A stretch of DNA of 58,767 nucleotides from Patescibacteria group bacterium (GCA_041749335.1 JBGTBM010000003.1:1-58767); one strand, 5' to 3'. Shown: positions 44,717 to 45,146, counted from the stretch's first letter. Notes: generated by a model from the sequence alone, not told the origin. Made by a program: numbers and translations.

Positions 44717-44876
44717 TTCTTCCTCCTACTTTGTTAGGCCATACGGCCAGGGGTGTTGCGGTTGTTTTATGGCTATTATTAAGAACAAAATCGTGAGAGC
44801 GGGATTTATATAAATTTTAAAATATCAAAATTAACGCCCTCTTCACAGTTATCTAAACTAAATAACTCGGAAAAAG

Positions 44877-45111
44877 GCGGGTGGGACAGATGGACTACAG
44901 CATTGCAATCAAGTCGTAGCCCCACCCGCAAGTCCTTTGATAATTCGACAAGCTCATTACAGGCAATCTCAGGACAAGAAAAGAAATGAGAGTGACAAGT
45001 GTCAATAAGTACAACAGACAACCCATAGCCTCTCTCATTAAATTGAAAATAACAGCGGACATTTCCACTTTAGAAATCAGCTCTCCAGGAGCCCGCCGTT
45101 AAAATGAACAA
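44877..45111 (-). ncRNA. hairpin array 2 (h3-h4-h5) in the 5' leader of the IS110-like gene
   Basis: Hairpins at 44877-44929, 44985-45039 and 45051-45100. Same stem classes as arrays 1 and 3. They lie between promoter P2 and the CDS start at 44716. Confidence 0.65.
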
Positions 45112-45117
45112 CACTAT

Positions 45118-45146
45118 ACTATATATTATAGAGATAATATTGTCAA
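45118..45146 (-). promoter_or_regulatory. promoter P2 (array 2 and IS110-like gene)
   Basis: Minus strand reads TTGACA - 17 nt - TATAGT. Confidence 0.7.

What the first reader, a model, noticed from the sequence alone, without database searches (positions are those of the whole stretch)
44717..45146. Array 2 sits between a consensus promoter and the IS110-like CDS, the position of a bridge RNA
P2 (TTGACA-17-TATAGT, 45118-45146) is followed on the minus strand by three elements in order:
- the conserved leader GTGTTGTTCATTTTAAC
- the hairpins h5, h4 and h3
- about 150 nt of further leader containing small hairpins (44848-44870 and GGCCGTATGGCC at 44738-44749), and then AGGAGGA-ATG

In IS621-type IS110 elements the bridge RNA is encoded in the non-coding end directly upstream of the recombinase. 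In the IS1111 subgroup it is encoded downstream.

Here modules of the same type occur upstream of the gene (array 2), immediately downstream after its terminator (array 1, with its own P1), and once more about 650 bp further upstream (array 3, with P3).

All three promoters share identical spacing, the same -10 hexamer and a near-identical -35 hexamer. That similarity argues for co-regulation.
Basis: partly seen in the sequence, partly recalled or inferred. Interest (0 to 1): 0.7.

Follow-up and report, generated by a model that had tools for sequence, protein, structure and literature searches.

The report
TIGR-Tas guide-RNA arrays, not bridge RNA
The hairpin modules around this gene are real, but they are the stem-loop guide-RNA arrays of a TIGR-Tas system with a nuclease-dead TasR protein, a kind described in 2025-2026 in Candidate Phyla Radiation (Patescibacteria) bacteria, and not the bridge RNA of an IS110 mobile element.

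Summary
Two paralogous promoter-leader-hairpin modules flank them.

The 436-aa protein is related to IS110, but it passes NCBI's curated TIGR-Tas model (160 bits, cutoff 100) and fails the IS110 model (51 bits, cutoff 140). Its best solved relative, by sequence and by fold, is TasR (PDB 9MTY). It has Arg8 where the first RuvC catalytic Asp should be, no catalytic Glu, and no IS110 serine.

All 14 hairpins share one anatomy: stem / CUN / 9-nt spacer A / UG-loop-CU / 9-nt spacer B / UG / stem. That is the published stem-loop tigRNA.

A covariance model built only from units in 10 other Patescibacteria genomes finds 13 units in the whole 58.8-kb window. It ranks all 14 at the top of a filter-free search of the locus. 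All are on the gene's strand and nothing is found elsewhere.

The arrays most likely supply dual-spacer guides that direct the dead TasR dimer to 18-bp DNA sites. A 2026 preprint shows transcriptional repression for this clade.

This is a new member of a known kind. Three points add modest value: each sub-array has its own promoter, spacers are replaced inside conserved scaffolds, and the gene has an unexplained GC3 excess.

The parts
45840..45868 (-). P3, sigma-70-like promoter of array 3 (TTGTCA-17-TATAGT)
   Evidence: 10/12 match. It is part of the 56-nt paralogous block D1.
45820..45836 (-). Conserved leader of array 3 (ATGTTGTTCATTTTAAC)
   Evidence: 1 mismatch.
45389..45823 (-). Array 3, six stem-loop tigRNA units: A3 45823-45771, B3 45758-45702, C3 45688-45642, D3 45580-45535, A3' 45525-45475, B3' 45446-45389
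   Evidence: Units parsed. Covariance-model hits range from E 2.5e-7 to 0.3.
45353..45376 (-). Terminator-like hairpin ending array 3 (AGAGCGGAGTCTTCACCCCGCTCT followed by a T-run)
   Evidence: It lies within an 80-nt block that is 94% identical to the block containing the array-1 terminator (family D2). Sequence read. The terminator scan did not call it, because its loop exceeds 8 nt.
45118..45146 (-). P2, sigma-70-like promoter of array 2 and probably of the tasR mRNA (TTGACA-17-TATAGT)
   Evidence: 11/12 match. No other promoter-like site on this strand lies between it and the ATG.
45098..45114 (-). Conserved leader of array 2 (GTGTTGTTCATTTTAAC)
44877..45101 (-). Array 2, three stem-loop tigRNA units: A2 45101-45050, B2 45039-44985, C2 44929-44877.
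   Evidence: Covariance-model hits have E 0.00083 to 0.1 with filters off.
44717..44876 (-). 160-nt 5' leader of tasR. It begins with a U-run after unit C2 and ends with RBS AGGAGGA (44727-44721). It contains no tigRNA unit.
   Evidence: The covariance model finds nothing here on the minus strand.
43406..44716 (-). tasR, 436 aa: a nuclease-dead RuvC-like domain with an insertion, then a coiled coil, then a Nop/Transposase_20 domain with insertions
   Evidence: NCBIfam NF052498 TIGR_Tas_endo scores 160.4 bits against a cutoff of 100. The profile search against the PDB gives 9MTY TasR at E 6.5e-23. The Foldseek top hit is 9MTY at E 1.9e-10. The AF2 model has pLDDT 87.9. Catalytic positions were read from the alignment.
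43354..43379 (-). Intrinsic terminator after tasR
   Evidence: 11-bp stem followed by TTTTTATTT.
43258..43286 (-). P1, sigma-70-like promoter of array 1 (TTGACA-17-TATAGT)
   Evidence: 11/12 match.
43238..43254 (-). Conserved leader of array 1 (GTGTTGTTCATTTTAAC)
42831..43241 (-). Array 1, five stem-loop tigRNA units: A1 43241-43186, B1 43174-43120, C1 43092-43036, A1' 42968-42918, B1' 42890-42831
   Evidence: Covariance-model hits have E 4.2e-6 to 0.0043 with filters off.
42796..42819 (-). Intrinsic terminator ending array 1
   Evidence: 10-bp stem followed by GTTTTTTTAT.

Best explanation
The locus 42796-45868 (minus strand) is a TIGR-Tas system of the stem-loop-array type, with a nuclease-dead TasR of the clade found in Candidate Phyla Radiation (CPR, Patescibacteria) bacteria.

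**Transcription (inferred from sequence).** Three sigma-70-like promoters each appear to drive one sub-array.
- P3 drives six units and ends at a terminator.
- P2 drives three units and continues into the tasR mRNA.
- P1 drives five units and ends at a terminator.

**The RNA unit (shown by sequence).** Each unit is one guide RNA (tigRNA). A palindromic stem of 6-12 bp encloses CUN (box C-like), a 9-nt spacer A, UG(U)-loop-CU(N), a 9-nt spacer B, and UG(U).

**Mechanism (by analogy with published relatives).**
- The transcripts are cut in the linkers into single units by a host RNase.
- One unit binds a TasR dimer. Each protomer recognises one box C/box D pair.
- Spacer A pairs with one strand, and spacer B with the other strand, of an adjacent 18-bp DNA site.
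- The RuvC-like domain has Arg8 in place of the first catalytic Asp and no catalytic Glu. The complex should therefore bind DNA without cutting it and block transcription at the site.

**What is shown and what is inferred.** Shown here are family membership of the protein, the unit anatomy, strand polarity, conservation of the gene-array association, and hypervariability of the spacers. Inferred are transcription from P1-P3, processing, RNP formation, DNA binding and repression. The native targets are unknown.
For: **Protein**
- NCBIfam TIGR_Tas_endo scores 160.4 bits (cutoff 100). The IS110 model scores only 51.4 bits (cutoff 140).
- A family profile hits TasR 9MTY at E 6.5e-23, against IS621 at 9e-5.
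- The AF2 model (pLDDT 87.9) has 9MTY as its best Foldseek hit. IS621, ISCro4 and TasH follow.
- R8, H9 and R10 are invariant in 22 homologues. No acidic residue is conserved at the end of beta-1 or beta-4. The published CPR-clade protein CsTasR has R8 and V126 at those two positions and does not cut DNA (bioRxiv 10.64898/2026.09.09.750476).

**RNA in the window**
- All 14 hairpins parse with two spacers of exactly 9 nt between CUN and UG motifs.
- Covariance model R1 was built from 57 units of 10 other genomes, with no window sequence. It finds 13 units in the whole window, all on the minus strand at 42836-45819 and nothing elsewhere.
- With filters off over 42300-46500, the 14 units are the top 14 hits. 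The mirror sites on the plus strand score 6-9 bits, against 20-30 bits on the minus strand.

**RNA in relatives**
- The same model gives 155 hits in 80 homologous loci. All are on the gene's strand and nearly all lie within about 2 kb of the gene.
- The inner loop helix was not used to select the units. It is 98% paired and shows UA<->CG covariation. This matches the 'extended hairpin in the loop region' reported for the CPR clade.

**Guide-like variability**
- Paralogous units in the window are 83% identical in stems and boxes and 67% in loops, but only 24% in spacers. Random pairs of spacers are 27% identical.
- Orthologous units in two related genomes are 81% identical in scaffold against 32% in spacers.
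- Across genomes, the distribution of spacer distances equals a shuffled control.

**Promoters**
- Promoter-like matches of at least 10/12 precede 15% of cluster-first units. The figure is 1% for inner units and 1.4% for random windows.
Against: - There are no expression, processing or binding data for this locus.
- The promoter calls are consensus matches only, and promoter rules in CPR bacteria are poorly known.
- The residue-level claim of a dead RuvC rests on the alignment, the AF2 secondary structure and the published relative. It does not rest on a structural superposition. D115, D126 and D162 are conserved acidic residues whose role was not resolved.
- No target was found. Under the TIGR geometry, nothing in the 58.8-kb window other than the arrays themselves matches any unit with 3 or fewer mismatches out of 18.
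- In several window units the loop does not form the clean mini-hairpin seen in relatives. Four units score only E 0.01-0.3 with filters off.
- Repression has been shown only heterologously in E. coli, for a different member of the clade.
Confidence: 0.9

Rival explanations
1. One reading: an IS110/IS621-type insertion sequence whose bridge RNA is encoded upstream of the recombinase, with extra copies downstream and further upstream.
For: - Pfam Transposase_20 passes its cutoff (29.4 bits against 21.3), and there is a weak DEDD_Tnp_IS110 match.
- IS621 and ISCro4 are significant structural neighbours.
- The RNA lies between a promoter and the gene.
Against: - The NCBIfam IS110 model scores 51.4 bits, far below its cutoff of 140. 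The TIGR-Tas model passes.
- The first Asp and the Glu of the DEDD tetrad and the catalytic serine are absent.
- The 14 repeated dual-spacer units are not a two-loop bridge RNA.
- Homologues fall mostly in single-member clusters, and the 80 loci recovered each come from a different CPR genome assembly.
- Rfam gives no match.
Confidence: 0.03
2. A bacterial box C/D-like system. The dead-RuvC Nop-domain protein would use the hairpin RNAs to guide modification of rRNA or tRNA, as Nop5 does with box C/D sRNAs.
For: - The protein fold is shared with Nop5.
- The dual guides are flanked by box C/D-like motifs.
- Faure et al. speculated that this clade could be an intermediate toward box C/D systems.
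Against: - Spacers are unrelated between genomes, and even between orthologous units of related genomes. Conserved rRNA targets would not give this pattern.
- The boxes are CUA/UG, not the RUGAUGA/CUGA K-turn motifs.
- Nop56/58-fibrillarin is only a weak Foldseek hit (E 1.3).
- The published clade member binds DNA and represses transcription.
- The presence of fibrillarin or L7Ae genes was not examined.
Confidence: 0.04
3. Unrelated intergenic palindromes (REP-like elements or terminators) that happen to lie next to the gene.
For: - The stems are GC-rich palindromes in AT-rich intergenic DNA.
- Two of them (C1 and C2) are followed by U-runs.
Against: - The internal anatomy is fixed, with two spacers of exactly 9 nt.
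- The covariance model shows strong strand asymmetry.
- The units occur only next to this gene in the window.
- In 80 other genomes the hits are always on the gene's strand.
Confidence: 0.01

Closest known systems
TIGR-Tas stem-loop-array systems with catalytically inactive TasR of the CPR clade, for example CsTasR from Candidatus Staskawiczbacteria (Faure et al., Science 2025, PMC12045711; Xu et al., bioRxiv 10.64898/2026.09.09.750476)
   Same: - The protein passes the curated TIGR-Tas model.
- Arg8 occupies the first RuvC catalytic position.
- There are insertions in both the RuvC and the Nop domains.
[quoted passage not shown]
- Arrays lie on both sides of the gene, on its strand.
- Relatives have a secondary hairpin in the inter-spacer loop.
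- The host is a Patescibacteria-type chromosome.
   Different: - The protein is smaller (436 aa against 547 aa for CsTasR).
- The CUU processing motif reported at stem bases is not consistently visible here.
- Several loops in the window are irregular rather than forming a clean mini-hairpin.
- The locus shows three paralogous promoter-leader-A-B-C modules, each with a consensus promoter. Whether sub-arrays have their own promoters is a point the preprint left open.
- Nothing has been tested experimentally for this locus.
Dual-repeat TIGR-TasR (TaTasR, PDB 9MTY)
   Same: - It is the best solved relative by both sequence profile and fold.
- The protein is a dimeric Nop-domain protein.
- The guide has a tandem-spacer logic of 9 + 9 nt.
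- UG serves as box D directly after each spacer.
   Different: - TaTasR has an active RuvC (D11) and cuts DNA.
- Its array uses short edge and loop repeats and is processed to 36-nt RNAs.
- Here, stems replace the edge repeats, box C is CUA rather than CCA, and the nuclease is dead.
IS110-family elements with bridge RNA (IS621, PDB 8WT6) or seekRNA
   Same: - They share the RuvC-like plus Tnp/Nop fold.
- The guide RNA is encoded next to the gene and read through two short guide segments.
   Different: - IS110 has an intact DEDD tetrad plus a catalytic serine.
- IS110 uses one RNA with a target-binding loop and a donor-binding loop.
- IS110 is mobile and often multi-copy.
- None of these holds here.
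Archaeal/eukaryotic box C/D sRNP (Nop5, fibrillarin, L7Ae)
   Same: - It has a dead RuvC-like N-terminal domain and a coiled-coil dimer.
- Its RNA is pseudo-symmetric, with two guides flanked by box motifs.
   Different: - Box C/D RNAs have K-turn motifs (RUGAUGA/CUGA).
- They target RNA for methylation.
- Their guides are conserved against rRNA.
- Here the guides are hypervariable, and the published relative binds DNA.

Membership tests
TIGR-Tas system (stem-loop array, CPR-clade dead TasR) | A Tas protein with the Nop-type RNA-binding domain | tested here: met
   - NCBIfam NF052498 scores 160.4 bits against a cutoff of 100.
- The family profile hits 9MTY at E 6.5e-23.
- The Foldseek top hit is 9MTY at E 1.9e-10, with TM-score 0.59 normalised to the target.
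TIGR-Tas system (stem-loop array, CPR-clade dead TasR) | Repeated units, each with two 8-12-nt spacers flanked by box C (before the spacer) and box D (after the spacer) | tested here: met
   - All 14 units have 9 + 9-nt spacers between CUN and UG.
- Among 150 model-aligned units, spacer A is 9 nt in 150 and spacer B is 9 nt in 146.
- In the same set, box C is CUA in 66 units and CGA in 22, and box D is UGU in 117.
TIGR-Tas system (stem-loop array, CPR-clade dead TasR) | Palindromic stems in place of edge repeats, supported by covariation | tested here: met
   - The outer helix is 100% paired, with many pair types per position. This part is circular, because units were selected as hairpins.
- The inner loop helix was not selected for. 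It is 98% paired and shows UA<->CG changes.
TIGR-Tas system (stem-loop array, CPR-clade dead TasR) | Arrays adjacent to tas and in its orientation, conserved across relatives | tested here: met
   - The window has 14 units, all on the minus strand and all within about 1.2 kb of the gene.
- The 80 related loci give 155 hits at E <= 1, all on the gene's strand.
TIGR-Tas system (stem-loop array, CPR-clade dead TasR) | RuvC catalytic positions substituted (inactive nuclease) | tested here: met
   - Beta-1 ends in IIGIR8-H9-R10, which is invariant. Beta-4 ends in VLGGSG and has no Glu.
- CsTasR has R8 and V126 at these positions.
- The assignment rests on alignment and predicted secondary structure, not on a superposition.
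TIGR-Tas system (stem-loop array, CPR-clade dead TasR) | Arrays are transcribed, processed into single units and bound by Tas. The RNP binds an 18-bp DNA site. | not testable with these tools
   This needs RNA-seq, pulldown and EMSA. Only consensus promoters and terminators are seen here.
IS110 family insertion sequence with bridge RNA | An intact DEDD catalytic tetrad in the RuvC-like domain | tested here: not met
   The first Asp is replaced by Arg8 and the Glu is absent. Only the K..DA.. motif (D162) is retained.
IS110 family insertion sequence with bridge RNA | A catalytic serine in the Tnp domain | tested here: not met
   The IS621 'YESGSSVRG' segment aligns to 'le..dgrfpR' of the family profile. 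The window protein reads VHVLHNEEPEKQFPRRR there, with no serine.
IS110 family insertion sequence with bridge RNA | Passes a curated whole-protein IS110 model | tested here: not met
   - NF033542 scores 51.4 bits against a cutoff of 140, and NF051857 scores 29.3 against 180.
- The Pfam domain model Transposase_20 does pass (29.4 against 21.3). This shows superfamily-level homology only.
IS110 family insertion sequence with bridge RNA | One non-coding RNA with two internal loops (target-binding and donor-binding) | tested here: not met
   There are 14 repeated single-unit hairpins instead. Rfam gives no match at gathering or relaxed thresholds.
IS110 family insertion sequence with bridge RNA | Mobility: multiple or near-identical copies and polymorphic insertion | tested here: inconclusive
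   - The window holds one copy.
- Homologue clusters hold 1-4 sequences, and the 80 recovered loci each come from a different genome assembly.
- The gene's GC tracks host GC (r = 0.69), which suggests long residence.
- No population data were available.
Box C/D sRNP | K-turn-forming box C (RUGAUGA) and box D (CUGA), with guides complementary to conserved rRNA or tRNA sites | tested here: not met
   - The boxes are CUA and UG(U).
- Spacers are unrelated between genomes.
- The host's rRNA was not available for a direct complementarity test.
CRISPR array | Direct repeats of 25-36 nt alternating with single spacers of similar size | tested here: not met
   The units are inverted-repeat stems enclosing two 9-nt spacers, and stems differ between neighbouring units.

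The most novel reading that the evidence does not exclude
The locus may be a natural record of how TIGR stem-loop arrays renew their guides.

Whole promoter-leader-A-B-C modules, and A'-B'-terminator modules, were duplicated. Afterwards the 9-nt spacers were replaced as precise cassettes while the scaffolds stayed 83-94% identical.

This would imply a dedicated spacer-writing or spacer-exchange mechanism that is so far unknown. It would not be explained by point-mutational drift.

In addition, each sub-array would be an independent, promoter-driven transcription unit, with array 2 doubling as the 5' UTR of tasR and possibly feeding back on its expression.
Probability: 0.25. Interest if true: 0.6.

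Novelty: new member of a known kind. Interest (0 to 1): 0.3.

Why it matters
**Annotation.** Genes of this family are still widely labelled 'transposase' or 'IS110 family'. Their arrays are invisible to CRISPR and Rfam tools. A reader working from sequence alone can therefore mistake them for bridge-RNA elements.

**Biology.** The system itself is already described. This instance adds three small, testable points.

1. Each of the three sub-arrays carries its own near-consensus promoter and a conserved leader. Similar promoters precede first units in other genomes. This bears on a question the 2026 preprint left open: whether internal sub-arrays are promoter-driven or processed from longer transcripts.
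2. Paralogous and orthologous units keep their scaffolds while their spacers are at random-level identity. This constrains models of spacer turnover, whose mechanism is unknown.
3. The gene is systematically richer in GC, especially at third codon positions, than its host genome. This is unexplained.

Tried and rejected
**Self-targets in the window**
- I searched for composite 18-nt targets of all 14 units, in both TIGR geometries (rcA+B and B+rcA) and in two contiguous geometries, allowing up to 4 mismatches.
- The hits are at the chance level. About 26 are expected for the 56 patterns at up to 4 mismatches.
- The only hit with 2 or fewer mismatches is unit C1 in a non-TIGR contiguous geometry, at 53564-53581. 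About 0.14 such hits are expected over all tests.

**Viral and metagenome searches with the 18-mers (not run)**
- An exact 18-mer is expected to occur by chance in collections of that size.
- A hit would therefore not be informative without sample-matched data.

**Rfam**
- Searches at gathering threshold and relaxed threshold gave nothing for the arrays.

**Conservation of spacers across genomes**
- Conserved spacers would have pointed to housekeeping targets such as rRNA. None were found beyond within-locus duplicates and one pair of related genomes.

**The first regex scan of related loci**
- It was too loose, hitting coding regions and both strands. The covariance model replaced it.

**Limits of the covariance model**
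- Model R1 misses subclades whose box C is CGA, for example L057 and L060.
- Its count of 28 of 80 loci with hits is therefore an underestimate.

**Recurrence of particular stems across genomes**
- Between-locus unit pairs with identical 6-nt stems number 203, against 80 expected.
- Units were collected with a model that favours its own consensus stem, so I do not rely on this result.

**Table S1 of Faure et al.**
- I looked for accessions to match against the homologues found here. The held supplementary text did not contain them.

Full report
**1. The observation**

- P2 at 45146-45118 (TTGACA-17-TATAGT, 11/12 match to consensus).
- The leader GTGTTGTTCATTTTAAC at 45114-45098.
- Three hairpins at 45101-45050, 45039-44985 and 44929-44877.
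- A 160-nt leader with small hairpins.
- AGGAGGA at 44727-44721 and the ATG at 44716, starting a 436-aa ORF.

P1 (43286-43258) and P3 (45868-45840) have the same 17-nt spacing and the same -10 hexamer. All three promoters sit inside a 56-nt block that is 80-89% identical between copies.

The leader occurs three times, against 0.26 expected by chance. The GGCGGRC...GTCCGC hairpin pattern occurs six times, against 0.03 expected.

**2. The protein**

Pfam gives only a domain-level IS110 signal. Transposase_20 scores 29.4 bits and passes its cutoff. DEDD_Tnp_IS110 scores 17 bits and fails.

More than 500 homologues exist at 45-68% identity. They fall mostly in single-member clusters from Patescibacteria and are usually named 'transposase'.

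An alignment of 22 of them, read against the AlphaFold model (pLDDT 87.9, pTM 0.83), shows three things:
- Beta-1 ends in the invariant IIGIR8-H9-R10, where IS110 and TasR have the first catalytic Asp.
- Beta-4 ends in VLGGSGD, with no Glu.
- The segment that carries the IS110 catalytic serine reads VHVL.DGRFPRRR, with no serine. Searches show this against the IS621 alignment.

A profile of the family hits TasR (PDB 9MTY) at E 6.5e-23, and IS621 only at 9e-5. Foldseek ranks 9MTY first (E 1.9e-10), followed by IS621, ISCro4 and TasH.

NCBIfam settles the matter. NF052498 'TIGR-Tas system RNA-guided endonuclease' scores 160.4 bits against a cutoff of 100. The IS110 model scores 51.4 bits against a cutoff of 140.

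**3. The RNA**

Every hairpin in the three arrays parses the same way: stem / CUN / 9-nt spacer A / UG(U)-loop-CU(N) / 9-nt spacer B / (N)UG(U) / stem.

There are 14 units in total: five in array 1, three in array 2 and six in array 3. A hairpin-plus-box scan of both strands of the 58.8-kb window finds such units only at 42831-45823 on the minus strand.

**4. Related loci**

A scan of one genome per species returned 80 loci encoding homologues. Nearly all come from Patescibacteria metagenome-assembled genomes.

In many of them the gene is flanked, on its own strand, by units with the consensus stem-(A/G)CUA-N9-UGUUCGAAAGAACUA-N9-UGU-stem.

In an alignment of 57 units from 10 genomes, the inner loop helix was not used for selection. 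It is 98% paired and shows UA<->CG covariation.

Covariance model R1 was built from those 57 units and contains no window sequence. Its results were:
- In the whole window it finds 13 sites, all on the minus strand at 42836-45819, with E from 3.5e-6 to 1.4. It finds nothing elsewhere.
- With filters off over 42300-46500, the 14 parsed units are the top 14 hits. Their plus-strand mirror images score 6-9 bits, against 20-30 bits on the minus strand. This fixes the polarity.
- Across the 80 loci it gives 155 hits at E <= 1, every one on the gene's strand.

The model misses subclades that use CGA as box C, such as L057 and L060. The association is therefore wider than the 28 loci it detects.

**5. 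What is known**

Faure et al. (Science 2025, PMC12045711) defined TIGR-Tas systems:
- Tas proteins carry a Nop domain.
- Their arrays hold units with two spacers of about 9 nt, each preceded by box C and followed by box D.
- The arrays are either dual-repeat arrays or stem-loop arrays, in which palindromic stems replace the edge repeats.

Xu et al. (bioRxiv 10.64898/2026.09.09.750476, September 2026) solved structures of two such proteins. They report the following:
- In CsTasR, the first two catalytic positions are R8 and V126.
- The CPR clade has an extra hairpin in the inter-spacer loop.
- The RNPs bind DNA, do not cut it, and repress transcription in E. coli.

The window locus matches each of these features that can be read from sequence. 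The match extends to Arg8 itself.

**6. Mechanism**

Three steps are shown by sequence:
- Family membership of the protein.
- The unit anatomy, its polarity and its conserved linkage to the gene.
- Guide-like hypervariability confined to the two 9-nt windows.

On the last point, paralogous units within the window are 83% identical in stems and boxes and 67% in loops, but 24% in spacers. Random spacer pairs are 27% identical.

For example, B1 and B2 match at 26/27 scaffold positions, 10/10 loop positions and only 3/18 spacer positions. B1' and B3' lie next to an 80-nt terminator block that is 94% identical, yet share 2/18 spacer positions.

Orthologous units of two genomes whose flanks are 85% identical give 81% identity in scaffolds against 32% in spacers. 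Across genomes, spacer distances equal a shuffled control.

The remaining steps are inferred:
- Transcription from P1-P3. Array 2 would form the 5' part of the tasR mRNA, because no other promoter-like site lies between P2 and the ATG.
- Processing of the transcripts in the linkers.
- Binding of one unit by a TasR dimer.
- Pairing of spacers A and B to opposite strands of an 18-bp site.
- Binding without cleavage, which blocks transcription.

Native targets are unknown. The window itself holds no convincing target.

**7. Context**

The window is ordinary chromosomal DNA. It encodes a class A PBP, RNase Y, a UvrD-type helicase, a cyanophycin-synthetase-like enzyme and a tRNA. It is not a phage or an obvious mobile element.

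**8. Points beyond the literature**

These points are modest:
- Each sub-array has its own near-consensus promoter and a conserved leader.
- In other genomes, promoter-like matches of at least 10/12 precede 15% of cluster-first units. The figure is 1% for inner units and 1.4% for random windows.
- The spacer-replacement pattern described above constrains how arrays evolve.
- The gene's GC content is 59.8%, against 39.1% for the rest of the window. Its GC3 is 0.77, against 0.24-0.48 for eleven other genes.
- In 74 related loci the gene exceeds its flanks by 9.9 GC points on average, while still tracking host GC (r = 0.69). I have no explanation for this.

**9. Verdict**

The locus is a new member of a known kind, the stem-loop TIGR arrays with nuclease-dead TasR of CPR bacteria.

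Noticed in passing
window 43406-44716 (-), compared with the rest of the window and with loci L001-L080: - The tasR coding sequence is far richer in GC than its genome: 59.8% against 39.1%. 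Its GC3 is 0.77, against 0.24-0.48 for 11 other genes in the window.
- In 74 related loci the gene exceeds its flanks by 9.9 GC points on average, yet its GC still tracks host GC (r = 0.69).
- This looks like a family-wide constraint on synonymous sites, or recurrent transfer. It is unexplained.
   Followed up: partly
window 45975-46360 (-): - A non-coding stretch of about 360 nt lies just upstream of array 3 on the same strand.
- It is bounded by a promoter-like site (46359-46332, TTGACA-16-TAAAAT) and a T-run after a hairpin near 45990.
- It folds much better than shuffled sequence (z = -4.3).
- There is no Rfam match, no tigRNA-model hit and no sequence similarity in the 80 related loci.
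- It may be an unknown small RNA.
   Followed up: partly
window 42440-42826 (+): - A DUF559 (very-short-patch-repair-like endonuclease fold) ORF converges on array 1.
- Its last codons lie inside the 80-nt block (42764-42843) that is duplicated at 45321-45400 with 94% identity.
- The end of this ORF is therefore made of array-terminator sequence.
   Followed up: no
L057 4631-4960 and L060 4486-4920; also 22 of 150 model-aligned units: - Some subclades use CGA instead of CUA as box C, with a short 8-nt loop (UGNUUCGA).
- The covariance model built here largely misses them.
- L060 also carries one or two extra units relative to L057 at the same position, which suggests unit gain or loss.
   Followed up: partly
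units in the window and in L001-L076 (alignment A4): - A few outer stems (GGCGGA, GTGAGA, GCGAGA, ...) recur in 7-8 different genomes with unrelated spacers.
- Between-locus unit pairs with identical stems number 203, against 80 expected.
- This may be partly an artefact, because units were collected with a model that favours its own consensus stem.
   Followed up: partly
window 43036-43092 and 44877-44929 (-): - The third unit of arrays 1 and 2 (C1 and C2) is followed directly by a U-run (UUUUUU or CUUUUU), like an intrinsic terminator.
- For array 2 this lies between the guides and the tasR start.
- It could therefore act as an attenuator of tasR expression. This was not tested.
   Followed up: no
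window 53564-53581 (+), inside the cyanophycin-synthetase-like gene 53481-56039: - This is an 18-nt site matching rc(spacer B)+rc(spacer A) of unit C1 with 2 mismatches.
- The geometry is contiguous on a single strand, which is not the published TIGR geometry.
- About 0.14 such hits are expected over all tests, so it is probably chance.
   Followed up: partly
L018, L047, L053, L052 (record titles): Four loci that encode close homologues with CPR-like context come from MAGs labelled Gammaproteobacteria or Bdellovibrionales. These labels are probably binning or naming errors in the source records.
   Followed up: no
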